Shown here: positions 416 to 38,083 of the stretch, in pieces | Layout of the letters: every line of letters begins with the position of its first letter | How positions within the stretch are numbered: the stretch's first letter is position 1 | Source: a virus | Lineage: Duplodnaviria; Caudoviricetes | Reading direction: 5' to 3' (one strand) | Length of the DNA: 42,323 bases | IMG/VR virus record: IMGVR_UViG_3300005286_000010 | Coordinates: 1-42,323 of that record | Position numbers and translations under genes: made by a program | The notes under the pieces: model-generated | The model's database searches: none | What the model was told of the DNA's origin: nothing | What the model saw: the letters and a program-made list of their open reading frames with translations, nothing else

Positions 416-418
416 TTT

Positions 419-517
419 CATGATCCCCCAATCCCGCACCGTATACCTCGAATTAGCCCGCATAAGCCGTAACAGGCGAACACGTATCATCTACTTCAAA
501 AACTACGTTAGGACGCT
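419..517 (+). repeat. 99-bp exact direct repeat, copy 1
   Basis: Identical to 42225-42323. Confidence 0.97.
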
Positions 518-548
518 TAACAAAGAGAGGAGCAAAGGGAAATGTTGA
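420..548 (+). CDS. Small basic hypothetical protein (42 aa, MIPQSRTVYLELARIS...)
   Basis: Read manually; start lies in the 99-bp repeat; stop overlaps next ORF. Confidence 0.5.
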   Translation: MIPQSRTVYLELARISRNRRTRIIYFKNYVRTLNKERSKGKC

Positions 549-805
549 GTGAGGAACGCCTGAAATTACTTCAACTATTAGCCTCTGAAATGATTGTAAC
601 AAAGGGCGAGCTGCGAAATGCAGTTGATGAACTGGTTTACGCATATCGTCAGTTGGATCAACAGCACAAACAGATGAAAGAGGTGTTGGAAAACATCAAT
701 TGTGAGAACAAAAGAGAACCATTTGATTATGCAGAATACTGGTCAATTGTATCAGAGATAGTTTCGCAGACAATCCGGTCGGTACAAGGAAGTGAATCCA
801 ACTGA
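542..805 (+). CDS. Hypothetical phage protein
   Basis: ORF with RBS in early operon orientation. Confidence 0.7.
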   Translation: MLSEERLKLLQLLASEMIVTKGELRNAVDELVYAYRQLDQQHKQMKEVLENINCENKREPFDYAEYWSIVSEIVSQTIRSVQGSESN

Positions 806-894
806 CACCAGAACAAAGAAAAAGAGCCCGTAGTAGCGGGCCCATCGTGACAATGCTCAAACAGATTGTACCAAACTATCGGAGGTTTTGATAG

Positions 895-1110
895 ATGGAA
901 GTGAAGCGCCGGATCATCATCAAGCGAACAGACGGTGTGCCGGTTAACCTCCACTATGAACCTGTAAAAACCATATCAGCAGCCGGCAGATTCAATGATA
1001 TTGAGGCCTACAACACTTTCATCCATGGATATTACGGACCTACAAATACCGAATTGTACAAGCCTCAGAAGATCAAGATTACCTATGAGGAGGAAGAAGA
1101 CGATGTGTAA
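895..1110 (+). CDS. Hypothetical phage protein
   Basis: GGAGG RBS; overlaps ERF start. Confidence 0.7.
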   Translation: MEVKRRIIIKRTDGVPVNLHYEPVKTISAAGRFNDIEAYNTFIHGYYGPTNTELYKPQKIKITYEEEEDDV

Positions 1111-1837
1111 CAAGTCGGAGTCGATATCCAAGATATCGGCGGCGCTAGTGGCCTTTAGCGGAGACGTAAAAGGAATCGGCAAAGACGCCACCAATCCGCA
1201 TTTTAAATCGCAATATACATCGCTTGACCATATGATCGACGAGACGAAGCCTCTTCTTACTAAACATGGACTTACCGTCATGCAATTCCCTGGAGGGGAC
1301 GGGGAAAAAGTAACCGTTAGAACTATGATCCTTCACGAATCCGGCGAATGGATCGAATCCGAACCTCTGACGCTCAAGCCGACCAAGTTTGACCCGCAGG
1401 GAGCCGGATCTGCAATCACCTACGCACGACGTTACAGCTATGCCGCGGCTCTCTCCCTATCGCTTGGTGATGATGACGATGGGAACGGCGCCAGTGCCCC
1501 TCAGATGCCCGCACAGACTTCCCAACAGACGAGACATACACAATATGGCGGACAACAACAAAACGCTTCACAGACGCCTACAGGAAGCCAGAGCGGATAT
1601 GTGAAGATGATATCCCAAGCACAAATCAACTTCATCGGTAAACTTCGAACAGAAAAGAGAATACCAGAAGATGATTATTACCGGATTGTCAGTGAAATTG
1701 GGAAGGATAAGACGAGCGTTAAGGAGTTTAGCAACAAGGAAGCGCAAGAAATGATTAATTTCCTTACAAACTACGTTGCTCAGGAATATACACATCCACC
1801 GGTTAAATATCCTGATGTTGATGACTTGCCATTCTGA
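1103..1837 (+). CDS. ERF-family single-strand annealing protein
   Basis: NPHFKSQY, GSAITYARRY and DDDDG motifs; acidic DDLPF tail; start refined to ATG 1103. Confidence 0.93.
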   Translation: MCNKSESISKISAALVAFSGDVKGIGKDATNPHFKSQYTSLDHMIDETKPLLTKHGLTVMQFPGGDGEKVTVRTMILHESGEWIESEPLTLKPTKFDPQGAGSAITYARRYSYAAALSLSLGDDDDGNGASAPQMPAQTSQQTRHTQYGGQQQNASQTPTGSQSGYVKMISQAQINFIGKLRTEKRIPEDDYYRIVSEIGKDKTSVKEFSNKEAQEMINFLTNYVAQEYTHPPVKYPDVDDLPF

Positions 1838-1846
1838 GGTGATCCC

Positions 1847-2233
1847 ATGGCTATACCCTATCCAAAGTCCAAGCAGCTCTATCACAACAAAGTAGACAAG
1901 CCCAAACTAAAGCACAAAAGGAACGCTCCCCGGTTACGTGATCGTGGCCGGGTACGTACCGAAGTCTACAACGAAGCGTATGAACGCGCTGGAGGCCGTT
2001 GTGAGCGTTGCGGATACGTAGACGGATCGTTAGACCCATCGGGGCAGAAATGGCGTCTAGAGGCCGCACACGTGGTCAGACGGAGGCATCTCGATCAGAC
2101 TACCGCAGACGACATTATCATGCTATGCGGTCCATCGGTTAATACAGGTACATGCCATAACTTCGCGGATTATACGAAAGCTGGACGCGAATGGATGATT
2201 GAACATCAAAAGCTGCGCAAAGAAGGCGCGTAA
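1847..2233 (+). CDS. HNH-type endonuclease
   Basis: CERCG ... LEAAH ... LCG ... CH pattern. Confidence 0.75.
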   Translation: MAIPYPKSKQLYHNKVDKPKLKHKRNAPRLRDRGRVRTEVYNEAYERAGGRCERCGYVDGSLDPSGQKWRLEAAHVVRRRHLDQTTADDIIMLCGPSVNTGTCHNFADYTKAGREWMIEHQKLRKEGA

Positions 2234-2248
2234 AGGGAGAGATATGGG

Positions 2249-2428
2249 ATGGGTGAGACGGTATTCCTTGTTGAGTACAAGATGCTGTGGGCCGGGAAAG
2301 TGGTTCGTGAAGGCGTTGAAGAAGTCCGGGCATATACCGAACACCAAGCAGAAAAAAAGGTCATCGAATACCTCGACATCGTCAACAAGAAGGCCGAGAA
2401 GCACATTCTCGCCATCGTATCTGCTTAG
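2249..2428 (+). CDS. Hypothetical protein (59 aa, MGETVFLVEYK...)
   Basis: Read manually; stop TAG falls inside the two-hairpin repeat. Confidence 0.6.
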   Translation: MGETVFLVEYKMLWAGKVVREGVEEVRAYTEHQAEKKVIEYLDIVNKKAEKHILAIVSA

Positions 2429-2460
2429 TCCCGTAAGGGACGGAGGCCGTATCAGGGTTT
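2392..2460. repeat. Two-hairpin element, copy A (degenerate)
   Basis: Hairpin-CATCGTA..GCTTA-hairpin(GTCCC GTAA GGGAC)-GGAGGCCG. Confidence 0.7.
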
Positions 2461-2503
2461 ATATCACAGGGGATATATTCCCCTAATAGGGGAGGATATA
2501 TAG

Positions 2504-2701
2504 ATGCAACTAACCATCGAAGACATCATACCGACTGTCACCATCGATGGTCGGGAGTATCGAGCAACCAATTTCCGTTACAACGGCAGCGGTAGGAAAT
2601 GGGCATATGTAGAATACTATCACCCCAATCGCGGCTGGCGAGAGGTTAATAACTGGGATCGTATTGAGCAAATAGCGGAAATGCTGTGGCCTATTAACTA
2701 A
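2504..2701 (+). CDS. Hypothetical protein
   Basis: GGAGG RBS. Confidence 0.7.
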   Translation: MQLTIEDIIPTVTIDGREYRATNFRYNGSGRKWAYVEYYHPNRGWREVNNWDRIEQIAEMLWPIN

Positions 2702-2718
2702 AGAGAGGATATGGATAA

Positions 2719-3003
2719 ATGGAAATAGCTAACGTAGCCATTTACACGGCGACTAGATACGGAAAGGCAACTTGGTTCGAGGCACAAGTAACTGCATTTG
2801 TAGGTGACGAAATCAAACGGTTTAGCGTTGACCTTCCCGTTTCAGAACTGAAAGAAATGGGCGTCTGCAAGAACTTGAACGGATGGAAAAGAGTGCAAGA
2901 GTGGGCTAATTCGGATGCTGGAAGTGAATACATCATCAAGAACAAAGATCGCAAAAGCATGCTGACTATGTTGAAAGCTCAAGAGGAGGCATCAAATACA
3001 TGA
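2719..3003 (+). CDS. Hypothetical protein
   Basis: RBS; ATGA coupling to next ORF. Confidence 0.7.
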   Translation: MEIANVAIYTATRYGKATWFEAQVTAFVGDEIKRFSVDLPVSELKEMGVCKNLNGWKRVQEWANSDAGSEYIIKNKDRKSMLTMLKAQEEASNT

Positions 3004-3413
3004 GTGACACGAAGAAGCTGGAAATAGCCATGAAGTGGCTAGAAGATATCGAAGGAGTTAAATCGCCTATCTCTTTATTAGCTTCTGCTGCATTGAGTGA
3101 GATTAGAGCTGTCGACGATCAATATCCGTTGGGAGTATCCATCCCCTCATCAGCAGAGGAACGGTATAGAGATATAGCCGAAGACATCGCCAAGTCGTAT
3201 GACATCGAATTACGTTCATTGGTCAATCGCCTGTTGAATGCAAACGACCATTACGCCGCAGATGCTGTCGAGAAACTTGCAGATCGGATGAAGTCTAAAT
3301 GTACTGAAGCCCTCTCCCCGAGCGGTGAGCAACCGAAACCGAAACAACGTTGCCCGCGCTGCGGAAATACTGGAATCCACTACTGTCGACCCAATGAGGA
3401 GGATGGAGAATGA
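3000..3413 (+). CDS. Hypothetical protein with C-terminal CPRCG motif
   Basis: Coupled ORF. Confidence 0.7.
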   Translation: MSDTKKLEIAMKWLEDIEGVKSPISLLASAALSEIRAVDDQYPLGVSIPSSAEERYRDIAEDIAKSYDIELRSLVNRLLNANDHYAADAVEKLADRMKSKCTEALSPSGEQPKPKQRCPRCGNTGIHYCRPNEEDGE

Positions 3414-3706
3414 TTAAATTAACGAGTCACGGCGGCGGGGAATTCTACTTCAATCCTGAACGAATAAACGTTATCGCTCCGTCTGGTGAAAATGGCCTCG
3501 CCTATATCGAATACGATCAAGACCGCTATGTTGTTATCGCCTCCCCCGAAGAAGTAGTCCGCAAGATCATGGAGTACAAGATTCGAACCATCCAATATGG
3601 ACAATATCTCCAAGATGCTTTAATGGGTGGAGATTGGGGAAAAACGAAGGAATCTATGAATGCTCTGTTTCAGCTCGCCGGACTGGAGGACAACCAAGAT
3701 GGATAA
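3410..3706 (+). CDS. FlbD-like family protein
   Basis: MIKLT..G.EFYFNPERI..I and V..SPEEVVRKI.EY match the FlbD pattern. Confidence 0.7.
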   Translation: MIKLTSHGGGEFYFNPERINVIAPSGENGLAYIEYDQDRYVVIASPEEVVRKIMEYKIRTIQYGQYLQDALMGGDWGKTKESMNALFQLAGLEDNQDG

Positions 3707-4688
3707 TAGGATAGAGGAGATCAAGCAGGCGCTAGAGGCAGCAAAGCCAGAACCGATAGATTGCGATGGAACATCCATTGTAGCTGATGATGATACGTTC
3801 ATTGCTTATTGCTACTACAAGGTTTATGTTCCATTATTCGCGAACTCGTCAAAATGGCTCCGCTATCTCCTCGAACAGTACGAACAGCAGCAATTGGAGA
3901 TAGCCGATCTAAAAAAAGCATATGACGAGGTACTGCAATCGTCAAGGAATCTACTCCATGAATGCGAGAAGACAAATAAGCAGTTACGACAGTCCCGAGA
4001 AGACGCCGGAAGATGGGAACTTAAATCCGATCAGCTCGCTAAAGAGAACGAACAGAAGCAAGCGGAGATTAAGGAACTCCGGCAGAAGTTACTCGAATTA
4101 TCGGATACTGGCATTAAGACGGCGTTAATCGGATTGGAACTGGAACGAGGAATGAGAGAGCTTAAATTAGACCTCGAACAGAAGCAAGCGGAGATAGAAA
4201 GGATATCGGCGGATCGCGATTTCTGGGTTAACCTCTACAATCAGGAACGTGATTTATGCAAGGGGCAAAAGGATAATTTGCGAGAAATCAACGAAAGCAT
4301 AGCCGCAGATGCTGAACGATTGCTCAAAGATAACGAACGCCTACAAGCAGAAAACACCCATCTACGAGGCATCTCTGATCGTGAGAGAGCCATAGCAGAT
4401 AGTGAGGAAAAGAGGCGTAAAGAAGCGGAGAAAGAGTGTGATCAGCTACGGGGAGAACTGGACACCACAAAGGAAGAGTTAAAAAAGACTTACGATGACT
4501 GCGAAGCTCTCGAATCTGAGCTGGACGATTACCGTAAGGTGCTGAAATGGTACGGAGAAGAGGATCAGTACGGTGTACATTTCCACTGGGAGATACCCGA
4601 GATTCTCAACGACAATGGTCAACAAGCCCGTGACATCCTATCCCGTTACAAAGAGAAGGGAGATAACCTGAATGGAAGCGACCATTGA
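3699..4688 (+). CDS. Coiled-coil phage protein with EQKQAEI repeats
   Basis: Heptad-rich; start refined to ATG 3699. Confidence 0.7.
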   Translation: MDNRIEEIKQALEAAKPEPIDCDGTSIVADDDTFIAYCYYKVYVPLFANSSKWLRYLLEQYEQQQLEIADLKKAYDEVLQSSRNLLHECEKTNKQLRQSREDAGRWELKSDQLAKENEQKQAEIKELRQKLLELSDTGIKTALIGLELERGMRELKLDLEQKQAEIERISADRDFWVNLYNQERDLCKGQKDNLREINESIAADAERLLKDNERLQAENTHLRGISDRERAIADSEEKRRKEAEKECDQLRGELDTTKEELKKTYDDCEALESELDDYRKVLKWYGEEDQYGVHFHWEIPEILNDNGQQARDILSRYKEKGDNLNGSDH

Positions 4689-5346
4689 TAAACCGCAGGC
4701 GTTCAAGTTCGAGAAAGACGTGTCCGAAGTATACCGCATCCGACTTAACAGTCTCAGATGCCAATGGGCAAACATCACGATTAATAACTCAGGGGATTTC
4801 AGCGCGATTACGGACTGTGGCAACTTCAATTACTGCTGGGGTGGATATGGTAGCGGAACGTTCAAGGATTTCCTGATTCGGATATTCAGCAAGAATGCAC
4901 AAGGGCGCGGAAGCTACGTGTACGAAAAGATTTCCGATGATTCGCGTGACTATGTCGACTGCGTGAAGACAATCGCGGCCATGAAGAAGGATTTCGTCGA
5001 GAGATATCGCGAGCTTTATAAGGATGCACGTTCTAAAGTCAGATGGGCAGACAACTTCGACAATAGGTGGGCATTCCAGGAATTGAAGGATAAGGCGCGT
5101 AACACCTGGGAAGCACTCGAATGCATCGAAGACGAAAGGACTCTCAGCAAAGACCGTTTCTTCTCGCTTGTATGGGAGGGATCACTCGACAACATATTCT
5201 TCGATGGAGATTATCTGGCGCATTGTTTGGATGTTGAGACCACTGGAGACCGGCAGGCGATAGCATTTTGCGAAGTGGTCGTTCCTGTTTTTGCAGAAAT
5301 TCTTCGTCAAGAGAGAGGAGATAACCATAATGAGCAGACAATATAA
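4672..5346 (+). CDS. Hypothetical phage protein
   Basis: 224-aa ORF with RBS. Confidence 0.75.
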   Translation: MEATIDKPQAFKFEKDVSEVYRIRLNSLRCQWANITINNSGDFSAITDCGNFNYCWGGYGSGTFKDFLIRIFSKNAQGRGSYVYEKISDDSRDYVDCVKTIAAMKKDFVERYRELYKDARSKVRWADNFDNRWAFQELKDKARNTWEALECIEDERTLSKDRFFSLVWEGSLDNIFFDGDYLAHCLDVETTGDRQAIAFCEVVVPVFAEILRQERGDNHNEQTI

Positions 5347-5752
5347 ATTTCGTGCATGGGACGTAAACGACCAAAAGATGCTATATAACATCAAAGAATT
5401 GCATCTCGATATCGGTAAAGTATTGATCGAAGGAGATACATGGGACTGGTATAAGCGGGAACGAATCCTCATGCAATATACCGGCCTCCACGACCGAAAC
5501 GGAAATGAGATTTATGAGGGGGACGTTGTGAACGTCTTCTGTAATTGTGACAGTGAATACGGATGTTCTCACGCTCCAAAAAGTTACACGGTTTTCTGGC
5601 ACGAAGATGGCTTATTCGACTTGGCTGCAGATGATATACCAAATGACTTCGCCAAGTACATGGAAGATTCATACGAAGTGATCGGCAACATTTACGAACA
5701 TCCGGAATTACTCGAATCGCGAAGCGACATCGAATCGACCGAATCCGCTTAG
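5330..5752 (+). CDS. YopX-family protein
   Basis: KFRAWD, LMQYTGLHDRNGNEIYEGD, EVIGNIYEHPELL. Confidence 0.95.
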   Translation: MSRQYKFRAWDVNDQKMLYNIKELHLDIGKVLIEGDTWDWYKRERILMQYTGLHDRNGNEIYEGDVVNVFCNCDSEYGCSHAPKSYTVFWHEDGLFDLAADDIPNDFAKYMEDSYEVIGNIYEHPELLESRSDIESTESA

Positions 5753-5780
5753 GGCTTAGCCCGGAGGCCGACACAGGGTC
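5717..5780. repeat. Two-hairpin element, copy B
   Basis: TCGC GAA GCGA-CATCGAATCGACCGAATCCGCTTA-GGGC TTA GCCC-GGAGGCCG..GGTC. Confidence 0.8.
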
Positions 5781-5782
5781 AT

Positions 5783-6104
5783 TATCCAATCAAGGGAGAG
5801 ATGAATATGAACAACAAACTTACAATGTGGTACGAACCAAACAACTCAGAAGCGATCAAAGCAGAGGTGCGCGAAAGAGTGAAGAGTCAATACGGATTTT
5901 CTGAAGGAGAACTCGTATCTATCGGCGGCGGATTCAAATTCCTGTTCGACGACGAGACAAACGGGAAAATCGAAGTCACATTCACCACAGAACCGAATGT
6001 AACAGGGCTAAAAGTGACCGTCGCTGGAACATGGCCATGGGAAGTAATCGAGATTTACAATCTGCTGCCACAATATCCGGGCAAGTGATATCCAATCAAG
6101 GGAG
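5783..6104 (+). repeat. 16-bp perfect direct repeat TATCCAATCAAGGGAG bracketing one gene
   Basis: Copies at 5783-5798 and 6089-6104. Confidence 0.9.
5801..6088 (+). CDS. Hypothetical protein between 16-bp direct repeats
   Basis: RBS is part of the repeat. Confidence 0.75.
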   Translation: MNMNNKLTMWYEPNNSEAIKAEVRERVKSQYGFSEGELVSIGGGFKFLFDDETNGKIEVTFTTEPNVTGLKVTVAGTWPWEVIEIYNLLPQYPGK

Positions 6105-6113
6105 GCATTAAGA

Positions 6114-6326
6114 ATGAGTAGACAATGCGCCAATTGCCAAAAAGACATCCCACCAGAGACGGAGCATTTCGCAATTGAGGACGAGCCTTATTGCACTGAT
6201 TGCGTAGAAATTACTCCATATACAGCGTATCTGTACTATGTGGATGGCGAATTCGTCGGAACATCGGAAGACGATCAAGTGAGGCATATTGAATCCTTAG
6301 ATGATGATTACGAGGGAGGCCAATAG
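6114..6326 (+). CDS. Small Zn-finger protein
   Basis: CANC ... YCTDC. Confidence 0.7.
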   Translation: MSRQCANCQKDIPPETEHFAIEDEPYCTDCVEITPYTAYLYYVDGEFVGTSEDDQVRHIESLDDDYEGGQ

Positions 6327-6327
6327 A

Positions 6328-6747
6328 ATGAGCATCGTTCAGCCGGGGCCGGAATTGGATAGACGGATGGCATTTGAGGTTATGGGGTTTGGGGCAACGT
6401 CAACATCATTTGATCCGAACACCGGCATCCTAACTATACGGAGTCTCCGAGAGGGAGAATCATCGGTTTCATTCCCGAGTGGCATTAAGAAGATCGAGTT
6501 CGTATTAGGAGGGCAAGAAGTTCCCTCATACTCCACCACATGGAACGGAATGCAACTGGTAGTAGAAGAGATGCAGCGTCGGGGATTCCAGTTCATGCTT
6601 TTCCAAACGAACAACATGAAGTGGAAAGCGGTAATCTACAACGGCTTCACAAGATCACATATTTACGCGGAAGCATTTGAATATACCGCCCCTCATGCTG
6701 TCTGTATGGCCGCTCTCAGCGCTCTGGAGGGACAAGCAGATGGTTAA
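6328..6747 (+). CDS. Phage ABA-sandwich-domain protein
   Basis: QPGPELD..MA..VMG; PSYST....QLVVEEM; APHAVCMAAL. Confidence 0.85.
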   Translation: MSIVQPGPELDRRMAFEVMGFGATSTSFDPNTGILTIRSLREGESSVSFPSGIKKIEFVLGGQEVPSYSTTWNGMQLVVEEMQRRGFQFMLFQTNNMKWKAVIYNGFTRSHIYAEAFEYTAPHAVCMAALSALEGQADG

Positions 6748-6852
6748 CCTATTCCAACTACTCATGAGACGATATAGAGACTGGGACGCCGCTAGGTGGT
6801 ATCGAAAACACTATAACGAGAGGGGGTAACTCCCCTTTAAGGGGGATGCTTC

Positions 6853-7686
6853 GTGCAAGGTTATATCAAACTTTACCGAAAGATCCGCGAGAATCCCGTA
6901 TTCAACAACATGGAATTGTTTCGGCTATGGATGATATGCCTTACCGAAGCAACCCATAAAGAACGGGATCAGATAGTTGGCCGTCAGGTTGTTCACTTAA
7001 TGCCGGGGGATTTTGTAACAGGTCGATTTGATCTTCAATCGATGTACAACAGGGGTTTATCCAGTGACCAACAAAAAAGCCCTAAAACAGTATGGAGATG
7101 GTTAGAGGCTCTAGAAAACGGCCATTTTTTGACCATCAAAACGACCAACAAATTCTCAGTCGTATCAATACTTAACTGGCACAAATACCAAATAATTGAC
7201 CAGCAAAATGAACAACAAGTGACCAACAAACGACCAACAAATGACCAACAAGTGACCACAAACAATAATGTAAAGAATGATTTAAATGGTTTCAATGTAT
7301 TAAAAGAATCTACTACTACCCCTAATGCGTTCGTCGTTTTCGAGAGAGAAGGATTCGGAACCATAAGCTCGACATTGGCAGAGAAGTTAGGATCATTCAT
7401 CGACGACTTCGGCGAACGCTGGGTGATCGAGGCAATGAAAGAAGCTGCATACCACAGTAAGCGAAGTCTTCCATACGTTAAGAGCATACTAGAAGATTAC
7501 CGCAGACGTGGAGTAGATGAACCATGGACGGTAGAACGGACTCAACAGCAAAAAGGATTTAATCGGCAGCAAACCAAAACAGGAAAGCCAGAAATGAGGG
7601 TTGTTTCCGGATCTCCTGCACCGGAGATATCTCAAGAAGAGCGCCAGCGAATGAGAGAACTCGCACGTGAACTAAAGACTTCATAA
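6853..7686 (+). CDS. Phage replication initiator with DnaD domain
   Basis: GYIKLYRKI N-terminus; FEREGFGTIS...WVIEAMKEA...YVKSILEDY. Confidence 0.9.
   Translation: MQGYIKLYRKIRENPVFNNMELFRLWMICLTEATHKERDQIVGRQVVHLMPGDFVTGRFDLQSMYNRGLSSDQQKSPKTVWRWLEALENGHFLTIKTTNKFSVVSILNWHKYQIIDQQNEQQVTNKRPTNDQQVTTNNNVKNDLNGFNVLKESTTTPNAFVVFEREGFGTISSTLAEKLGSFIDDFGERWVIEAMKEAAYHSKRSLPYVKSILEDYRRRGVDEPWTVERTQQQKGFNRQQTKTGKPEMRVVSGSPAPEISQEERQRMRELARELKTS
7064..7265. repeat. Iterons, probable replication origin inside the initiator gene
   Basis: Repeated GACCAACAA-like units, dense at ~7197-7262, followed by an AT-rich tract. Confidence 0.8.
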
Positions 7687-7720
7687 GGTTGCCATTATCA
7701 GCAAAGGAGAGATAACGGGA

Positions 7721-8113
7721 ATGAGTAGGGAAATCAAATTCAAAGCGTGGGACAAGAGCAAGCGAAGATGGTTATCCATGCATGAATACGATGCGAGAAT
7801 TATCTTGAACGCATATGTGGATGACTCTGGATTCGAACTGAATGAATACGACGGGAAGCACGCTAAAGATTTAGGAATAAACATCGACGTTGTCCAATAC
7901 ACCGGACTAAAGGACAAGAACGGCAAAGAGATTTACGAAAGAGACTTAGTAAAGGTGCATGACTACCATGGTGTGCGGAAAGGAAGCGTTTGGTACTCGA
8001 ATGTTTATGGAGCCTTCTTTTACGGTGGAGATGAATTCTCAGATGAGTATCTGTTTAACGCCAGAAACATCGAAGTCATCGGAAATATCTACGAGAAGGA
8101 GAAAAGCCAATGA
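7721..8113 (+). CDS. YopX-family protein
   Basis: REIKFKAWD, QYTGLKDKNGKEIYE, EVIGNIYE. Confidence 0.95.
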   Translation: MSREIKFKAWDKSKRRWLSMHEYDARIILNAYVDDSGFELNEYDGKHAKDLGINIDVVQYTGLKDKNGKEIYERDLVKVHDYHGVRKGSVWYSNVYGAFFYGGDEFSDEYLFNARNIEVIGNIYEKEKSQ

Positions 8114-8490
8114 AACTAACCCGCGAATCTATTATGTCTATGCAGCCTGGGAGAGAGTTGGATATAGAGATTGCAAGATTGTTAGGACACGATATTCAAA
8201 TGATCGCCGCATTCCAAGATGAACAGCCGAAAGCACGCATTAAACTTGACGGTGGTTCCATACCCGTTCCGCACTATTCATTCGTAATATCAGCAGCGTG
8301 GGAAGTCGTAGAACATTGGGGATACTCAGCAAGAGTTGGATACCAGGGAACTGATTGCTTTTGCAATATCATGATTGGATTCGATGACGGTGGAAAGCCA
8401 ATTTACGGAGATATTGATGGATGTAAATCTGTTCCAGAAGCAATCTGTAAAGCCGCACTATTAGCCAAACTGGAGGCGGATGAGGAATGA
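8110..8490 (+). CDS. Phage ABA-sandwich-domain protein
   Basis: PGRELD..IA; PHYS..ISAAWEVVE; PEAICKAALLA. Confidence 0.88.
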   Translation: MKLTRESIMSMQPGRELDIEIARLLGHDIQMIAAFQDEQPKARIKLDGGSIPVPHYSFVISAAWEVVEHWGYSARVGYQGTDCFCNIMIGFDDGGKPIYGDIDGCKSVPEAICKAALLAKLEADEE

Positions 8491-8849
8491 TACGCCTTCG
8501 CAACCAATCCAAGTATCGAGCACAGAAAACAACAGTTGACGGCATAACCTTCGATAGCCAACGAGAGGCACAGCATTACAGCTTTCTAAAGCTACAACAA
8601 CGTATGGGACTGGTAAAGGAGATCAAGCTCCAACCGGTATATGTACTTCTAGAGCCGTACAAGCACCCTCAGACGGGGAAAAAGGTACAGGGGATAAAAT
8701 ACCGTGCGGACTTTCTTGTCACCTACCCAGACGGCTCACAAGAGGTTATAGACGTAAAGTCAGAACCAACGAGGAAGAAAGAAGCATACGTACTAAAAAA
8801 GAAATTATTCGAGAGTCGATACGGCCAAGCGATAAAGGAGATTCTATGA
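8487..8849 (+). CDS. DUF1064-family PD-(D/E)xK nuclease, putative junction resolvase
   Basis: SKYRAQKTTVDGITFDS..EA; YRADF; VIDVK. Confidence 0.9.
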   Translation: MIRLRNQSKYRAQKTTVDGITFDSQREAQHYSFLKLQQRMGLVKEIKLQPVYVLLEPYKHPQTGKKVQGIKYRADFLVTYPDGSQEVIDVKSEPTRKKEAYVLKKKLFESRYGQAIKEIL

Positions 8850-9183
8850 AACTCTATCACCGAATCATGGCAAATCGATATAAGCGTAGATACGGACCAG
8901 CAGCATACCATAGATATATCTACCATATGCGAAAGGCGGGGGATACATGAATCCTGTACAAGAAATATACGACAAAGCGAAGTCCGCCAAACAGAACGGA
9001 ATCATGGTCATGAGCGTGGATTATATCTTGCAACAGTTTGAGCGAGAAAGTGAGTTTTACAGATTGGCCTATAGAAGCCCGTTAGAGGCGTCGAAGGTAT
9101 CGGACGCATAAATCTACAAGAGTACAATTCAAATTCAACCACGGGCCTACAACGAGCCCAAAACCACATTAGGAGGCATAACC

Positions 9184-9468
9184 ATGAAGGTACAAGTTGA
9201 AGGGAACATTTATCTGGAGTCGGACGAGCATCAATTCATCATCAAGGAGTACACCGGCAAGATAGACAAAAACGGAAATGACCTCTACACGACTCACGCT
9301 TATGTAACGAGCCTTGAATCTGCTTTTAAGTTCCTTGTAAAGCTCAAAGTTAAGCAATCGACGGCATCGAATCTTAACGAACTCATCATCGATCTAAAGC
9401 GAATCGAACAGTTTATCCGGGATCAGCTGTCGATAGACGTCGGAAATGGAATCAAAGAGGCCGTATGA
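9184..9468 (+). CDS. Hypothetical phage protein (DUF5405-like)
   Basis: AGGAGG RBS; resemblance by eye. Confidence 0.6.
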   Translation: MKVQVEGNIYLESDEHQFIIKEYTGKIDKNGNDLYTTHAYVTSLESAFKFLVKLKVKQSTASNLNELIIDLKRIEQFIRDQLSIDVGNGIKEAV

Positions 9469-9532
9469 AGAAATCACCATGGAGAAAACAGATAGCAGCG
9501 GACATTAAACGGACGGGGAAGGAGAAGGGAAA

Positions 9533-9778
9533 ATGATCGATCGAGCTATGCAATGGTGTCTCAAACGGCCGTTATTCTATCCTATCGTCATGGTTGCAAA
9601 TTCGATCTATGCGGTATTCGTAGTATTTCCTCTATGGCTGATTGGTCATTGGATATGCGATGAATGCAACAAGCGATTCGGCGTTAACGACCATAAGAAT
9701 GATCTAGTATGGGCCACGGTCTGCGACGGATGCAAAAGAAAAGCATACGGGGAGGAGTTTCCATGGTCGGAAAAGTAA
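9533..9778 (+). CDS. Membrane-anchored protein with two CxxC motifs
   Basis: Hydrophobic N-half; CDEC, CDGC. Confidence 0.65.
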   Translation: MIDRAMQWCLKRPLFYPIVMVANSIYAVFVVFPLWLIGHWICDECNKRFGVNDHKNDLVWATVCDGCKRKAYGEEFPWSEK

Positions 9779-10022
9779 ATACAGTGAGAAAAGTAATCCC
9801 GTTGAGCAGCCGGAAGAAACGTCCCAGCAAGGATGAGTACAAGAAGTACGCGAAACGACCTCCGGATGGTCCGAACGATTGTGCGTAATCTCTAATCATA
9901 TCATTTACTGGTGGTGATTGATAGAGAAAACGACGAAATATATAGATAAATGTTGGTAAATCGTTTATAATCAAGATATAGATATCGGAATATTACGAAT
10001 GATCAATATATGGAGGATGAAC

Positions 10023-11150
10023 ATGGAACAACTGACGAAAGAAATCGCACGACTTAAGCAAGAAGCGGAACATTTACGGTTGATCGGAGATGAATCTGGT
10101 TATATCGCCAAACTGAGGGAAGCAGAAGTGAAGACGAGCATTGCGAACATGACCGAGCAAGAACTGCTGGCAAAACTCTCTACGGTTACTGGAGAAGAAC
10201 GAAGACCATATGAAGATCAATACCAAGCGCTGTTGGCGGCAAAGGCCAAAGAAGTAGTGGACGACGCAACAAAATCCATCTCCAGCACCGATACAATTAG
10301 CATCGGCGGCGAGGAATATACGATTGACGATTTAGTATCTGGAGCGGACGAAGGAATCATTTTGCGACAATATCTGCGCCAAATCAAGATGCAAGTAACG
10401 GAGACGGCATCGAGATGGGCGAACGAAATGGGTGCTAAAGACGATGCGATTGCGCAACTGAAATCGGAGCTTGGCGCGGTTAAGTTGGAACGTGACGACC
10501 TTGCAAGTAAGCGCGATGCTGCCGTCAGAGAAGCAGAAGAAGCAAGGGCCGAAGTTGAGCGATTGAACAATCACGTAGACGATCTTCGCAAACAAATTGC
10601 AGTCGGGGCAACTGCGGCAGCTACGGTAATCGATATTGAGTCGGACGTCGATCTCGAAGCAGTTGCGAAGCGATTGAAGGAGAAGAAGGAAGCCGCCGAC
10701 AAAGCCGCTAGAGAGGCCGCAGAAGCCGCTAAGGTTCGTATCTACGACGTACAGCCCGGAGACCTTCGCCAAAGCTTCTACGTGGCAAAGAGAGCTGACA
10801 CAGACGAAGCAATCGAGATTCGCCCGCACTACGCCATTAACAACTACGTCGTACTCTCGAACGAAGAGGCTGCCCGATTTCGGGAAGAGTATAACGCCGC
10901 GCAAAAAGCATTGGTGGAATCCGTTCCGGAATCGACGGAAGAAACTGGAGAAGATGTTAGCGAGGGTGTAAAGGTACCTCCGACATTTCAAGATAGCGAA
11001 ACCTCAGAAATGGGAGGAGACTCCACTGTACAAGAAGTACATGGGGAGAGTGCTACGGGGGGAATGGAATCCTTGGAAGCACGGGTAAAACTGTTGGAAC
11101 AGAAAGTGGCGAAGCTTGAGGCGCAATCGGAATCTGTGGTGGCGGCGTAA
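10023..11150 (+). CDS. Large acidic coiled-coil protein
   Basis: GGAGG RBS; AT-rich upstream region with TATAAT. Confidence 0.8.
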   Translation: MEQLTKEIARLKQEAEHLRLIGDESGYIAKLREAEVKTSIANMTEQELLAKLSTVTGEERRPYEDQYQALLAAKAKEVVDDATKSISSTDTISIGGEEYTIDDLVSGADEGIILRQYLRQIKMQVTETASRWANEMGAKDDAIAQLKSELGAVKLERDDLASKRDAAVREAEEARAEVERLNNHVDDLRKQIAVGATAAATVIDIESDVDLEAVAKRLKEKKEAADKAAREAAEAAKVRIYDVQPGDLRQSFYVAKRADTDEAIEIRPHYAINNYVVLSNEEAARFREEYNAAQKALVESVPESTEETGEDVSEGVKVPPTFQDSETSEMGGDSTVQEVHGESATGGMESLEARVKLLEQKVAKLEAQSESVVAA

Positions 11151-11395
11151 TGGCTGGATTGGTAGAGTCGTTGGCTTTGGACATCTGGAAAAAAGAAGAT
11201 TACATCGATAAGCACGCAACCGGAGAAAAGATAACGAAAATAAGAATCAACCCCGAAAAATTCACTGAACTACTCAAAGAGGCAAACGCGCTATCCAAGC
11301 ACATATTTACTGAAGACGGGGAACATCAATTCAACGACATCCCTGTTGAGCGCGATAAAACGGTGCAGTTGTGGGAGTTCGACACAGTGAAGTAA
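11150..11395 (+). CDS. Hypothetical protein
   Basis: TAATG coupling. Confidence 0.7.
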   Translation: MAGLVESLALDIWKKEDYIDKHATGEKITKIRINPEKFTELLKEANALSKHIFTEDGEHQFNDIPVERDKTVQLWEFDTVK

Positions 11396-11455
11396 CAATA
11401 ACCATCAGGGAGAGCGGCTATCATCCAGCCGTTTTCTCGGTAAGGAGGAAAAACA

Positions 11456-11902
11456 GTGAAAAACGCGGGGGCTATGCACTGGAAAGAAACGTACATGGAT
11501 CTGGAAGAGGAAATACAAGTCCTAGAGCATAGAGAGCGCGAACTAACGGAACAGCTCGAACTGGCATATCAGATGTGCTACGACGGGAAGATGCCAGGAG
11601 ATTCATTTTCGAGAATGCCACTGGATAAGGCACTCGAAACCTATGACAACGTTAGAGCAAAACTGAACACAGTACAAGAATGGCTAGAGAAGAAGCGCCA
11701 AACGAAGAAGAATATGGACGAAAGCATCGGACGAATGAAGAGTTTGGAAGGACAAGTATTCTACAGACGATCCGTAATGCGTCAGACGATCCGTCAAATT
11801 GCAAGAGACATGGGATATTCCGAGGGATACATCAAGAATGTGTCCTATCGCATGGTTCAGGGAGAAGAGTTCGAGAACAGGAGAAATGTGACTTTCTTGT
11901 GA
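11456..11902 (+). CDS. ArpU/RinA-like late transcriptional activator
   Basis: C-terminal HTH (TIRQIARDMGYSEGYIKNV); last early gene before packaging module. Confidence 0.75.
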   Translation: MKNAGAMHWKETYMDLEEEIQVLEHRERELTEQLELAYQMCYDGKMPGDSFSRMPLDKALETYDNVRAKLNTVQEWLEKKRQTKKNMDESIGRMKSLEGQVFYRRSVMRQTIRQIARDMGYSEGYIKNVSYRMVQGEEFENRRNVTFL

Positions 11903-11935
11903 CCTCGCATCACCTTAAACCATGGTATTATATTA
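11887..11935 (+). promoter_or_regulatory. Late promoter
   Basis: TGTGAC repeats at 11887 and 11898; extended -10 TGgTATTAT 11923-11931; no consensus -35. Confidence 0.65.
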
Positions 11936-11945
11936 GTGTGCAATA

Positions 11946-12263
11946 GTTCCCGCGTTGCATGGAGAAACGCCATACTATCGCGAAATGGGATGAGCGTTTC
12001 TCCTGATAAAAGTGATAAGGCCAGTAGAAGCGCGGTAACGACTGAGAAGCCTAGGAGCGCGACATGGTAAATCAGTGGCCTGACATAGGTGATAAGCGCC
12101 AAGGACGGGCGGGAACGCCGGTAACGGCGAAAAGGTGGACGAAAGTCCGTGTAGGCGCATCACATACGAATCCGCTACCAGACGTTGGGCTTAGCCGAAT
12201 AGCCGTAACGTTGGACGTAAAAGGAGCGGTTGACTTAACGGCTCGAACCGCTCTGACGGATTC
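11946..12263 (+). ncRNA. Candidate large structured RNA with pseudoknot (family unassigned)
   Basis: About eight helices, GNRA tetraloops, crossing pairings, no credible CDS. Confidence 0.7.
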
Positions 12264-12270
12264 AATCATA

Positions 12271-12382
12271 CGTGGATGGCGGAAGATAGACGCTAGCTAA
12301 CAACGCCCCGTATTGATCCGACAATGCAAACGGAGCGAGTGGGTGGGGTCCACATCCATGGGTGAAAGTCCCGTGGTCCACG
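12271..12382 (+). ncRNA. tRNA-like RNA with non-canonical anticodon arm
   Basis: Acceptor CGTGGAT/GTCCACG; D arm GCG..CGC; variable arm GTGG/CCAC; T arm CATGGG-TGAAAGT-CCCGTG. Confidence 0.65.
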
Positions 12383-12402
12383 AATAATAGCTGTATACCC
12401 GG

Positions 12403-12426
12403 AACAGTCCCTTATGGGGCTGTTTT
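12403..12426 (+). terminator. Intrinsic terminator
   Basis: AACAGTCCC TTAT GGGGCTGTT TT. Confidence 0.7.
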
Positions 12427-12457
12427 GGCGTTAATGGAAAAACTTTCGCATAAAGTG

Positions 12458-12500
12458 TTGACAACGTCATACAGATGGAGTATGATTGTGTCATACAGAT
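12458..12500 (+). promoter_or_regulatory. SigA promoter with two GTCATACAGAT operator repeats
   Basis: TTGACA-17-TATGAT; repeats at 12466-12476 and 12490-12500. Confidence 0.85.
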
Positions 12501-12519
12501 TAGCGAAGGGATGGTTAAC

Positions 12520-12783
12520 ATGGAACGATTCGAAAAAGTGAAATTCAAACACTACTGCAAAAATGAAAGTAGCAAAGTCATTGCTGTGGGGAATGCCAAG
12601 GATTTCATTGCTGCATACGACACAATTGATGAAGCTGCGGAAGCTGTAAGTAAGATAAACATTGGTGAATCTAAATGGGGAGTAATATCCATTTTGAGTC
12701 CGGGTGAATCCAAAGAAATCGAACTTGAAAGAGTTCTCTACCCAGAAGAAGATTCATGGGATTTGGATGAATTGGGAAATTGA
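12520..12783 (+). CDS. Moron hypothetical protein
   Basis: GAAGGGA RBS; own promoter. Confidence 0.7.
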   Translation: MERFEKVKFKHYCKNESSKVIAVGNAKDFIAAYDTIDEAAEAVSKINIGESKWGVISILSPGESKEIELERVLYPEEDSWDLDELGN

Positions 12784-12953
12784 TACCGCCTCTTGTTGGA
12801 TTGTCTGATGCGGCAGATATTCTTGGGTGGGATCGCCGCAAAGTACAGACATATATCAGCAGAGGGGCGTTTCCTAAGCCGATACAACGTATTTCTAGCG
12901 GCCCCATATGGACACGAAAGCAAATAGAGGATTACCGAGACAGTCGCCAATGA
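12780..12953 (+). CDS. AlpA/excisionase-like HTH protein (57 aa; absent from ORF track)
   Basis: LVGLSDAADILGWDRRKVQTYISRGAFPKP...GPIWTRKQIEDY; TTGA coupling. Confidence 0.85.
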   Translation: MIPPLVGLSDAADILGWDRRKVQTYISRGAFPKPIQRISSGPIWTRKQIEDYRDSRQ

Positions 12954-12971
12954 GCGGCTGTTTTTATTTTT
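12939..12971 (+). terminator. Intrinsic terminator closing the moron
   Basis: ACAGTCGC..GCGGCTGT followed by T tract. Confidence 0.8.
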
Positions 12972-13038
12972 GCATCGAAGATGCCATCGTAGCGACCGAA
13001 TATGCTTAGCCGAAGGCGGAGGCCGTATATGATTGGTC
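12972..13038. repeat. Two-hairpin element, copy C
   Basis: GCATC GAA GATGC-CATCGTAGCGACCGAATATGCTTA-GCC GAA GGC-GGAGGCCG..GGTC. Confidence 0.8.
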
Positions 13039-13107
13039 TTATTCTATTTCTATCACTCATATTACTTTTATCACTCTGCTGGTATCTAGAGAGGAGGTAT
13101 AAAAGCC

Positions 13108-13374
13108 GTGGCTAAGATATACCGGTACAAGACATCACAAAACAACTGTATCAAAGCTCTGCGCGACTTGCTAGAACGAGCAGAACGTGGTGAAATGACC
13201 GGATTCATATTCGCTGCTAATCTACCGAATGGCAATGTCGCAACATCCTGGGCGAATGTAGATATTGGCGAGAGGCAATTCCTCATCGCACACCAGCAAG
13301 TGGACTTGAACTATGGGATCGTACAGGCGAATGCGGATCAAGTAGCGGATATGGTGAGAGAATATTTGGATTGA
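13108..13374 (+). CDS. Hypothetical phage protein
   Basis: AGGAGG RBS. Confidence 0.75.
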   Translation: MAKIYRYKTSQNNCIKALRDLLERAERGEMTGFIFAANLPNGNVATSWANVDIGERQFLIAHQQVDLNYGIVQANADQVADMVREYLD

Positions 13375-13457
13375 TATGCAGAATAGTGAATGGAAGGCTC
13401 CGATATTGCACAGTTTAATGCATAAGGAACGAATAAACGATGAATGAAGGTGAGATT

Positions 13458-13886
13458 ATGGCAGGACGCCCAAACAAATACTACTCACACGTAGAGCCTA
13501 AGCTCCTGCTGATAGAAGCATGGGCCAGAGATGGAGTAACAGAAGAACAGATGTGTAACAATCTCGATGTGAGTGTATCGGCATGGAGTGAATACAAGAA
13601 GGAATTCCCGGCATTGGTGGAAGCCCTAAAAAACGGTCGTGAAGTCATTGACACGATGGTTGAAAATGCACTTCTTAAAGCAGCATTGGGATATGAGTAT
13701 GAAGAGGATCAGATGAGTGGACAATTTGTCGCGAGAGTAAAGAAGTACGCCCATCCCAATACGACAGCGCTTATCTTCTGGCTAAAGAACCGTAGGCCGA
13801 GAGAATGGCGCGATAAGCAAGAGATCGAACATAGCGGAGAAGCTGGGGTGAGAATCATCAATGACATCCCTCGCCCAAGCAGATAA
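13458..13886 (+). CDS. terS: Terminase small subunit
   Basis: GRPNKY, HTH, VENALLKAALGY, ALIFWLKNR; precedes TerL. Confidence 0.88.
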   Translation: MAGRPNKYYSHVEPKLLLIEAWARDGVTEEQMCNNLDVSVSAWSEYKKEFPALVEALKNGREVIDTMVENALLKAALGYEYEEDQMSGQFVARVKKYAHPNTTALIFWLKNRRPREWRDKQEIEHSGEAGVRIINDIPRPSR

Positions 13887-15225
13887 TGCAGTAAGCCTTT
13901 TAAACGTGATTGCACCATCGTTCTACGATGTTCACTGGGATATACTCGACGGGAACCATACCCACTATTGGCTATCAGGTGGTCGTGGTTCTACGAAATC
14001 ATCGTTCGTTGCGACTGAAATTATTCTCGGCATTATGGCCGATCCACTCGCTAATGCTGTTGTGCTACGGAAGGTTAAGGACACATTGGGCGAGTCGGTC
14101 AAGGATCAACTCTCCTGGGCGATAGAAGCGCTTGGGGTCGAGCAATACTGGGAGATACCAGAGACAAAGTTGGTTCTCACATACAAGCCGACAGGACAAG
14201 AGATTCGTTTTCGGGGAGCTGACAAGCCTAAGAAGATTAAGTCCCTAAAATTCGCGAAGGGATACGCAAAGTTCATTTGGTACGAGGAATTAGACGAGTT
14301 CACCAGCATGGAAGAGATACGGATGATTAACCAATCCCTCATGCGCGGTGGACCAAAGTTCGTCGTATTTTACACATACAACCCACCGAAGTCGGCCAAC
14401 AATTGGGTTAACACAGAGAAGAAGTTTACCCGACCGGATCGGCTGACGCATCACAGCACGTATGAGACAGTACCGAGAGAATGGTTGGGACCTCAATTCA
14501 TCATCGAGGCTGAACACCTCAAGGCCACAAAGCCATTGGCGTACGAGCATGAATACCTTGGAGTTGAAACCGGGACAGGCGGCGAGGTATTCAACAACGT
14601 GCAGATCAGGAAGATCAGCGACGAAGAAATCGAGGACTTCTACAACATCCGGCGCGGCTTAGACTTTGGCTATGCGATTGATCCGCTTGCATACGGTGTC
14701 ATGCACTACGACCGTAAGCACAAGCGGCTATATATATTTCACGAGCTTTACAAAGTTGGGTTGTCCAATCGGTCGGCATATAAACACATCAACGAAGAAA
14801 ACAAGAAGAATGAACTTATTTATGCCGACTCATCCGAGCCAAAGAGCATTAATGAGTTGGCTCAATACGGGTTAAGGATAGCCGGAGTTAAGAAGGGTCC
14901 AGATAGCATTGAATATGGCATCAAGTTCCTACAAGACCTTGAAGCGATCATCATCGATGATGAACGTTGTCCAGAGACGGCGAGGGAATTCCTCTCGTAT
15001 GAACTGGATAAGGATGCTAACGGGAACTTTAAAGCCGGATATCCGGACAAGAACAATCACAGTATCGACATGGTACGTTATGCCATGAACGATGAATATC
15101 TGGACTTCCGGGAACGAATGAAGAGACCAGATCGACATCCTACACAAGAAGAACGTGTCCAGCAACACATTGATAGATTGGACAGACAAGCCAAGAAAAA
15201 GAAACGAGGTGAGTACGCTGGATAA
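13861..15225 (+). CDS. terL: Terminase large subunit, PBSX type
   Basis: GGRGSTKS Walker A; WYEE Walker B; GLDFG and NHSIDMVRY nuclease motifs. Confidence 0.96.
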   Translation: MTSLAQADNAVSLLNVIAPSFYDVHWDILDGNHTHYWLSGGRGSTKSSFVATEIILGIMADPLANAVVLRKVKDTLGESVKDQLSWAIEALGVEQYWEIPETKLVLTYKPTGQEIRFRGADKPKKIKSLKFAKGYAKFIWYEELDEFTSMEEIRMINQSLMRGGPKFVVFYTYNPPKSANNWVNTEKKFTRPDRLTHHSTYETVPREWLGPQFIIEAEHLKATKPLAYEHEYLGVETGTGGEVFNNVQIRKISDEEIEDFYNIRRGLDFGYAIDPLAYGVMHYDRKHKRLYIFHELYKVGLSNRSAYKHINEENKKNELIYADSSEPKSINELAQYGLRIAGVKKGPDSIEYGIKFLQDLEAIIIDDERCPETAREFLSYELDKDANGNFKAGYPDKNNHSIDMVRYAMNDEYLDFRERMKRPDRHPTQEERVQQHIDRLDRQAKKKKRGEYAG

Positions 15226-33440: not shown

Positions 33441-33470
33441 GGGTATTCGGATTAACGTGTTGAAAAGGGG

Positions 33471-37996: not shown

Positions 37997-38013
37997 GACA
38001 AAACACCCACCTC

Positions 38014-38044: not shown

Positions 38045-38083
38045 CTCGAAATGAACTAATACATTCCTAAATGGGGTGATAAA

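What the first reader, a model, noticed from the sequence alone, without database searches (positions are those of the whole stretch)
2392..13038. Three-copy two-hairpin element with covarying stems at accessory-gene boundaries
Seen: copies at 2392-2460, 5717-5780 and 12972-13038 share [hairpin 1]-CATCGWA-(..GACCGAAT..)-GCTTA-[hairpin 2]-GGAGGCCG, with an outer GACC/GGTC pairing in copies B and C. Stem sequences differ but pairing is kept (TCGC-GAA-GCGA vs GCATC-GAA-GATGC; GTCCC-GTAA-GGGAC vs GGGC-TTA-GCCC vs GCC-GAA-GGC) while linkers are conserved. In A and B the element supplies the TAG stop of the upstream gene. B abuts the 16-bp-repeat cassette; C abuts the moron terminator. Known: c-GNA-g triloops are exceptionally stable in single-stranded DNA. 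Inference: a structure-defined site, either an ssDNA recombination or insertion signal driving gene-cassette turnover (attC-like in concept) or a protein-binding/antitermination RNA.
Basis: partly seen in the sequence, partly recalled or inferred. Interest (0 to 1): 0.78.

Follow-up and report, generated by a model that had tools for sequence, protein, structure and literature searches.

The report
Folded ssDNA signal bracketing phage genes

Summary
Real. The three copies (core 2413-2449, 5728-5770, 12985-13025) belong to a family of about 285 distinct copies, up to 12 per phage contig, seen only in early regions of Paenibacillaceae-type temperate phages. There is no Rfam match. Copy A has lost the 9-base core.

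The hairpin loops are GNA, GNYA or TT, never UUCG, and stems almost never use G-T, which points to folded single-stranded DNA. Copies occur on both strands relative to transcription. Opposite-strand copies bracket single genes with 5' ends inward (28 pairs against 11.7 expected). Gene content does switch at the element, but not at one base, and there is no target duplication and no linked recombinase, so attC membership fails.

Best reading (0.42): a single-strand initiation signal read by the host primase or primosome. Unpaired copies sit on the predicted lagging-strand template around the initiator gene (42:1 downstream, 11:7 upstream), and a Firmicute primase triplet (CTA/TTA) is modestly enriched at the 3' foot. 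The main rival is a nick site for an unlinked ssDNA nuclease. The scan noted the same architecture for other elements in other genomes; no sequence look-alike was found.

The parts
2392..2412 (+). Copy A, 5' hairpin (in the coding end of the 59-aa ORF 2249-2428)
2413..2449 (+). Copy A core, degenerate: 9-base CGACCGAA block deleted; hairpin 2 at 2428-2441 with GTAA loop; supplies the TAG of ORF 2249-2428
2450..2461 (+). Copy A 3' tail with TTA at +10 (candidate primase triplet, inferred)
5717..5727 (+). Copy B hairpin 1 with c-GAA-g loop, fused to the end of the YopX gene 5291-5752
5728..5770 (+). Copy B core, complete; hairpin 2 at 5752-5762; supplies the TAG of YopX
5771..5784 (+). Copy B 3' tail (TTA at +12); homology to prophage G001, which has no element here, starts at +7
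12937..12964 (+). Intrinsic terminator after the HTH gene 12780-12953, directly 5' of copy C (context, not part of the element)
12972..12984 (+). Copy C hairpin 1 with c-GAA-g loop
12985..13025 (+). Copy C core, complete; hairpin 2 at 13009-13017 (GCC-GAA-GGC); identical core in G001 behind a different upstream gene
13026..13041 (+). Copy C 3' tail (TTA at +14)
6853..7686 (+). DnaD-like replication initiator with four 11-base iterons at 7206-7258; presumed origin, used as the reference for the orientation test
995..1837 (+). Erf-like single-strand annealing protein; candidate for joining cassette ends at short homologies (inferred)
1847..2233 (+). Small HNH protein (phrog_7370); associated with element-bearing phages but neither necessary nor sufficient

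Best explanation
The element is a conserved 55-70 base phage DNA motif that likely folds on one strand when that strand is exposed and likely acts as a single-strand initiation (priming) signal for the host primase or primosome. Shown: a conserved core (C-N-Y-C-G-N3-CGACCGAA-N2-4-R-CYYA-[hairpin]-GG-N-R-GCCG plus a ~12-base tail) with covarying stems, DNA-type loops, use of both strands, and inverted inward-facing pairs around single genes. Inferred: the mini-hairpins keep the site free of SSB; a primer starts at a CTA/TTA in the 3' tail and synthesis runs back through the element into the gene on its 5' side. Single copies would prime the lagging or displaced strand during phage replication. 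Two copies facing each other would copy both strands of the gene between them, giving a gene-sized duplex that the phage's Erf/RecT-type annealing protein joins to other phages at resident copies or at a few bases of microhomology. The three window copies are unpaired sense copies, and A is probably dead.
For: DNA fold: hairpin 1, never constrained by my patterns, has GNA 69, GNYA 29, TT 7, GNRA 1, UUCG 0 and other 47 of 153. Hairpin 2 has GNA 55, GNYA 24, GNRA 3 of 96, with 3 G-T among 247 pairs. The named 10-pair structure is 92.6% paired with 72 two-sided changes, against at most 16 when slid. PMC13037366 (passages) says GCGNAGC/GCGNNAGC hairpins are far more stable in DNA than RNA, resist SSB, and occur at the G4, St-1 and alpha3 origins and in RSF1010 ssiA (CCGAAGG, the commonest hairpin-1 loop here). 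Orientation: unpaired copies are 42 sense to 1 antisense downstream of the initiator gene, and 11 to 7 upstream, with 6 of the 7 within 0.9-1.7 kb (Fisher p=5e-4, 34 contigs); this is the lagging-template pattern. Triplet: CTA/TTA starts at +7..+14 in 47% of 154 sense tails, against 21-29% further out, 33% in within-tail shuffles (0 of 3000 as high) and 40% in column shuffles (p=0.016). Bacilli primases start at CTA/TTA (PMC2978363 section 13). In G4 the annotated primer starts at a CTG 3' of the mini-hairpin stem and runs back through it. Three junctions with element-less alleles fall near +7 to +11. Pairing: 28 against 11.7 +/- 2.7, 0 of 20,000 permutations as high, and partners are no more alike than random copies (0.43 against 0.51), as expected if each works alone on its strand. 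Restriction to one host family across unrelated terminase and initiator modules fits a host reader.
Against: No biochemical test was possible. No copy was found where priming is unavoidable: none in plasmids (four short blastn searches, insensitive) and none recognised in an ssDNA phage. The covariance model does not score the phiX174 F-G region (0.4 bits), and the DNA profile does not hit the G4 origin. The phiX-like pattern scan returned 108 unrelated hits of 111. Eleven unpaired upstream copies, including window A and B, lie on the predicted leading template of a leftward fork. The 7 upstream antisense copies reduce to about 5 independent events, and could be left ends of cassettes that carried the initiator. 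Only half of the tails have CTA/TTA, and the excess over column shuffles is small. One junction (L127/L401) lies at -3 to +5, not +10. Copies whose local strand vote opposed the initiator, including window C, were dropped. Many relatives have no copy, so it is dispensable.
Confidence: 0.42

Rival explanations
1. Nick site: the folded strand is cut near its 3' tail by a structure-specific ssDNA nuclease or HUH enzyme encoded elsewhere (Ssn/SRM-like, REP/RAYT-like or IS91-ori-like), and the freed 3' end carries the adjacent gene into another phage. One copy gives one-ended capture, two give a cassette.
For: The element ends near +9 to +12 and joins targets with little homology. Many cassettes have an element at one end only (54 of 81 sense copies are unpaired). 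About 13 near-invariant unpaired bases suggest a specific reader. SRM hairpins flank ssnA at both ends in 42% of homologs (PMC11893778 section 7).
Against: 195 adjacent genes fall into 171 families, the largest with 3 members. Pfam scans of 154 of them found no GIY-YIG, HUH or transposase domain. The one associated nuclease (phrog_7370; 11 of 19 element-positive against 17 of 132 negative genomes) is missing from complete element-bearing records G012 and G015 and sits in 18 regions with no element. There is no fixed target tetranucleotide and junctions vary. This reading does not predict the asymmetry around the initiator.
Confidence: 0.25
2. Exonuclease stop plus crossover linker: the fold blocks 3'-5' ssDNA exonucleases, so DNA fragments survive with an element at each 3' end and are annealed in by Erf/RecT. 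The shared sequence then serves as a PeSL-like homology for gene swaps. No priming is involved.
For: Both 3' ends of a cassette carry the element. Mini-hairpins resist 3'-5' exonuclease (PMC13037366 passages). First mismatches between alleles that share the outer flank are scattered 3-44 bases into the element (51 valid pairs of 52). PeSL precedent (PMC2839356 abstract).
Against: A simple hairpin would suffice, so the invariant single-stranded core is unexplained. Partners are dissimilar. It does not explain antisense copies just upstream of initiators. The crossover role is probably true as a by-product under every model.
Confidence: 0.17
3. A structured RNA (small self-cleaving ribozyme, processing site or protein-binding element) working in sense transcripts and in antisense transcripts.
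For: 81 of 120 classifiable copies are sense, often right after a stop codon or terminator. The compact fold with optional capping hairpins and an invariant core resembles small ribozymes (inference). PMC5737381 notes that ssDNA and RNA motifs are hard to tell apart computationally (passages).
Against: No UUCG loop, and GNYA outnumbers GNRA 29 to 1 in the unconstrained hairpin. Two-pair stems dominate and G-U pairs are almost absent. 39 copies are antisense just before a ribosome-binding site. Copy C lies behind a terminator. No Rfam match.
Confidence: 0.1
4. attC-like site-specific recombination site of an integron-type cassette system.
For: Gene-by-gene spacing, diverse small cargo, some direct arrays (7 '++' and 3 '--' neighbours within 1.3 kb), and the DUF1874 motif precedent.
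Against: Inverted pairs dominate. No tyrosine recombinase is linked (the window's integrase is a large serine recombinase). There is no fixed crossover base. Alleles are replacements that cut into resident genes. No circle junction at an element appeared in the source sample's contigs (weak).
Confidence: 0.06

Closest known systems
Single-strand initiation signals: G4/St-1/alpha3 primase-dependent origins, phiX174 pas, RSF1010 ssiA/ssiB, pAMbeta1 ssiA
   Same: 40-100 base folded ssDNA with GNA/GNNA mini-hairpins, strand-specific, a candidate triplet 3' of the hairpins as in G4, and opposite-strand pairs as in RSF1010 (recalled). The phiX174 F-G gap holds a GACC..A-GCGAAGC..GGTAG stretch at 2352 that resembles the family core (post hoc).
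   Different: No significant model match to phiX174 or G4. Many copies per dsDNA temperate phage, bracketing accessory genes rather than one origin. Priming untested. The RSF1010 and pAMbeta1 sequences were not obtained.
attC sites of integrons and the attC-like DUF1874 motif (Weinberg 2017, PMC5737381)
   Same: Folded ssDNA between small genes; cargo turnover.
   Different: Inverted opposite-strand pairs, no IntI, no fixed crossover base, strong primary-sequence conservation. Rfam 15, in which I recall the Weinberg motifs being filed, gives no hit.
SRM/NTS hairpins with SsnA (PMC11893778); REP/RAYT and IS91 ori ends (partly recalled)
   Same: Short ssDNA hairpin repeats that flank genes and affect gene exchange.
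   Different: No nuclease gene linked; confined to phage early regions, not hundreds of chromosomal copies; multi-hairpin fold.
PeSL cassettes of T4-type phages (PMC2839356)
   Same: Conserved intergenic repeats in plastic regions at which genes are swapped.
   Different: No promoter-terminator content (one search lists no promoter-like site at any of the three copies), both orientations, DNA-type mini-hairpins.

Membership tests
ssi / pas priming signals | Folds on one DNA strand with SSB-resistant mini-hairpins | tested here: met
   Loop census and covariation; loops are of the DNA class on one strand only (0 of 96 on the other strand). SSB resistance itself was not tested.
ssi / pas priming signals | Lies on the lagging or displaced template relative to the origin | tested here: inconclusive
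   42:1 downstream, 11:7 upstream, p=5e-4, but 11 exceptions, few independent upstream events and an inferred origin position.
ssi / pas priming signals | Primase start triplet 3' of the hairpins (G4 type) | tested here: inconclusive
   CTA/TTA in 47% of 154 sense tails against 33% and 40% in two shuffles.
ssi / pas priming signals | Sequence or model similarity to a characterised ssi | tested here: not met
   phiX174 0.4 bits; G4 no hit; RSF1010 record not held.
ssi / pas priming signals | Converts ssDNA to duplex in vivo or primes in vitro | not testable with these tools
   Needs an M13 ori-minus rescue or a primase assay.
attC / integron | Direct (same-strand) sites between successive cassettes | tested here: not met
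   28 inverted inward pairs against 10 direct neighbours within 1.3 kb.
attC / integron | Fixed crossover base | tested here: not met
   First mismatch at 3-44 bases in 51 allele pairs (mixes mutation and crossover); element-less junctions vary.
attC / integron | Linked IntI tyrosine recombinase | tested here: not met
   The window encodes a serine integrase only; no such family among those most shared across 29 contig segments.
MITE / composite transposon ends | Near-identical terminal inverted repeats and target duplication | tested here: not met
   Partner score 0.43 against 0.51 for random pairs; no clean empty site among 37 cassettes and alleles are replacements.
SRM-Ssn or HUH-end systems | Cognate nuclease gene flanked by or linked to the motif | tested here: not met
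   An unlinked host enzyme is not excluded.
Described structured RNA (Rfam 15) | Covariance-model match | tested here: not met
   0 hits at gathering threshold in the window; only an unrelated E=4.6 hit in 1-14000.

The most novel reading that the evidence does not exclude
Temperate phages use pairs of inward-facing, host-read ssDNA priming signals as a natural PCR-like device: any gene that comes to lie between two copies is copied on both strands into a gene-sized duplex and recombined into other phages. This would be an enzyme-less gene-cassette system that explains part of phage mosaicism without integrase or transposase.
Probability: 0.25. Interest if true: 0.87.

Novelty: new variant of a known kind. 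Interest (0 to 1): 0.68.

Why it matters
How single accessory genes enter and leave temperate phage genomes is a long-standing open question, usually put down to chance illegitimate recombination. Here 195 adjacent genes in 171 families, including several DNA methyltransferases, PAPS reductase, a queuosine-precursor transporter and YopX, sit against one small conserved ssDNA fold, and at orthologous slots the gene is swapped while the element stays. The element is short, has a minimal form of about 30 bases, and occurs in a cultured phage (Paenibacillus phage PG1, NC_021558.1 29485-29565), so priming, nicking and exchange can each be tested directly. It is also a rare candidate for a natural ssDNA with more than a simple hairpin.

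Tried and rejected
Rfam at gathering and E-value thresholds: nothing. Known small ribozyme consensus motifs were compared from memory on both strands and did not fit; this is not a tool test.

Model R1 and the first pair count used mis-indexed structures and were discarded. A loose genome pattern matched 398 of 401 genomes at control level and was uninformative. The outer GACC/GGTC helix was rejected. The HNH gene as obligate partner was rejected. Transposon-end and TA-duplication ideas were rejected. CYYA as a universal primase site is weak (TTA 88, CCA 75, CTA 29, TCA 22 of 219, and absent from GCGA short forms).

The phiX174 resemblance has a chance of 0.04 per shuffled genome with a pattern designed after seeing it and did not generalise. 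A recalled 7-base pas consensus could not be confirmed in print. A scan for an ssiA-like hairpin gave 15 unrelated hits. Five Bacilli pattern hits outside prophages lacked the hairpins, and one weak phylum hit was dropped. No RNA holder was listed. Source-sample contigs show no circle junction at an element.

Literature searches for a prior description found none; most subscription papers are not held. The supplement of PMC5737381 could not be read and may bear on novelty. PMC398378 and PMC3008174 are not held.
Full report
Setting. The window is a circular temperate phage of 42,323 bases (99-base terminal repeat), with a serine integrase, repressor, Erf, DnaD-like initiator, late activator, terminase and structural genes. 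The three copies lie in the rightward early-middle operon, all on the + strand.

Observation. The pattern matches three times and never in 100 shuffles. Rfam has no match. A model built from 49 members (two rows are window B and C) scores C 68.7, B 56.9 and A 27.3 bits. A has lost nine bases including CGACCGAA, whereas its orthologue in prophage G001 is intact.

The family. Pattern scans, model searches of whole records and a DNA profile run over 663 held loci gave 285 distinct cores at 15 bits or more; the best score on shuffled loci was 10.6. All 34 viral records tested, chosen because they held one copy, have 1 to 12 copies. Nineteen of 151 genomes in the family of G001 carry it; G001's record is titled Cohnella xylanilytica and G002's Paenibacillus sp.. 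Among 401 Bacilli genomes a strict pattern gave true hits in 6, five from that family sample and one from the order sample. Among 151 genomes of the phylum only G001 hit convincingly. Chromosomal singletons that I checked lie among phage early or packaging genes. The cultured phage PG1 has one copy in the 19.6 kb searched.

Anatomy. An optional 5' hairpin (153 of 258) is followed by C-N-Y-C-G-N3-CGACCGAA, a 2-4 base linker, R-CYYA, hairpin 2, GG-N-R-GCCG and a tail of about 12 bases. Hairpin 2 covaries fully. The G of CG near the 5' end swaps with the C of CCGAA (GC 111, AT 5, other 7), and the second Y-position partly covaries with N. In 39 copies the whole 3' arm shrinks to RC-[CCAA or GCGA]-GC. 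A long-range CG-CG pairing is possible but invariant, so untested.

DNA or RNA. Hairpin 1, which no search constrained, has GNA 69, GNYA 29, TT 7, GNRA 1, UUCG 0 and 47 others. Hairpin 2 stems are mostly two pairs, with 3 G-T in 247; the larger hairpin-2 count is biased by the pattern and is not used. These are the GCGNAGC/GCGNNAGC mini-hairpins that are much more stable as DNA, bind SSB poorly, and occur at G4-type origins, RSF1010 ssiA and N4 promoters (PMC13037366, passages). Of 128 copies on mapped contigs, 81 are sense, 39 antisense and 8 between opposed genes (gene calls from my own simple ORF scorer).

Arrangement. Antisense copies sit just before a ribosome-binding site and sense copies just after or inside a stop, so the 5' side faces a gene. 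Opposite-strand pairs facing inward at 100-1300 bases number 28, against 11.7 in 20,000 label shuffles (maximum 24). Twenty-eight of 39 antisense copies have a partner, but only 27 of 81 sense copies do. Partners are not more alike than random copies. Thirty-seven distinct cassettes carry Dam and C5 methyltransferases, YopX, Vut_1 and mostly unknown genes. Overall, 195 adjacent genes form 171 families.

Gene switching. G030/G023 and G087a/b keep both elements and both flanks but hold different genes. Against the window, G001 shares copies A and C and their 3' flanks but has different 5' neighbours. It also has an extra [antisense element - Dam - sense element] cassette where the window has the 65-aa gene, and no element at B. 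In 51 allele pairs sharing the outer flank, the first mismatch falls anywhere from 3 to 44 bases into the element. Alleles without the element show replacements, not insertions. L127's cassette replaces L401's methyltransferase-like gene (my reading of its start) at an 8-base microhomology spanning -3 to +5. The interior of an ABA-sandwich-like gene (L448, L358, L475) is replaced by three different genes plus a sense element in L344, L445 and L482, with the 3' junction near +9 to +11, probably one ancestral event. The G001/window junction is at +10.

Who reads it. The most shared gene is a small HNH protein (18 of 29 segments). It is enriched with the element (11 of 19 against 17 of 132 genomes, p=4e-5) but is absent from near-complete records G012 and G015 and present in 18 regions, some truncated, with no element. 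Pfam scans of 154 neighbours found no HUH, GIY-YIG or transposase domain. Element-bearing phages differ in terminase, initiator and recombinase families but share a host family, which favours a host reader (inference).

Priming test. Taking the initiator gene as the origin (iterons at 7206-7258 in the window), unpaired copies are 42 sense to 1 antisense downstream, and 11 to 7 upstream, with six of the seven antisense copies 0.9-1.7 kb from the gene (p=5e-4; 34 contigs; 10 contigs had no initiator called; copies whose local strand vote opposed the initiator were left out). That is the lagging-template pattern for a mainly rightward fork with a leftward fork at initiation. The upstream antisense copies are only about five independent events. 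CTA/TTA, the Bacilli primase triplets (PMC2978363 section 13; PMC5204125 passages), peak at +9 to +12 of the tail. They occur in 47% of 154 sense tails, where a stop codon on the other strand cannot explain them, against 33% and 40% in two shuffles. G4's annotated primer likewise starts 3' of its mini-hairpin stem and copies back through it. B. subtilis has a plasmid primosome assembly site needing PriA, DnaB, DnaD and DnaI (PMC5703833 passages). Against this, there is no model match to phiX174 or G4, no copy in plasmids by short blastn, and A and B lie upstream of the initiator in sense orientation.

Verdict. A real and apparently undescribed family of structured ssDNA elements tied to single-gene exchange in Paenibacillaceae phages. 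It works most likely like a single-strand initiation signal (0.42), less likely as a nick site (0.25) or an exonuclease stop and crossover linker (0.17). It is not a member of attC, MITE, SRM or any Rfam family by the features tested. Two unchecked notes of this scan describe the same inverted gene-bracketing layout for other ssDNA elements. They gave me the priming lead, are not independent support, and no sequence look-alike was indexed.

Noticed in passing
window 33430-35649: ISL3-family transposase (33471-34784, minus) with two passenger genes, one a YopX, inside 36-base inverted repeats (89% complementary): a transporter IS inserted between the lysis genes and the integrase.
   Followed up: partly
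window 38316-39033: The antirepressor appears as two overlapping ORFs (38316-38813 and 38794-39033) matching the N- and C-terminal parts of phrog_373: a frameshift or split gene.
   Followed up: no
window 5783-5799 and 6089-6105: A short direct repeat containing the ribosome-binding site flanks the 95-aa gene 5801-6088; G001 shares this gene at 98.5% but has no element upstream.
   Followed up: partly
L344, L358, L445, L448, L475, L478: Related Paenibacillus phages share many 24-60 base start-associated linkers at gene boundaries; different genes are fused in frame to the same first 6-7 codons (MTLTRE), a second kind of exchange point.
   Followed up: partly
window 5291-5752, 7721-8113, 35148-35546: Three YopX paralogues in one phage, and two ABA-sandwich genes (6301-6747, 8110-8490); YopX C-termini often abut an element, including a variant contig in the source sample diverging at 5701.
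   Followed up: no
window 9999-11150: A 375-383-aa coiled-coil protein with no PHROG or Pfam match sits just before the late activator in 9 related phage segments.
   Followed up: no
window 37544-40516: Two divergent repressor/Cro-like HTH pairs (37544-38299 and 39746-40516) in tandem in the immunity region.
   Followed up: no
L361 375-627; L348 6184-6351; L353 15129-15319: Five tail-to-tail element pairs only 44-184 bases apart with no gene between them, consistent with adjacent cassettes.
   Followed up: partly
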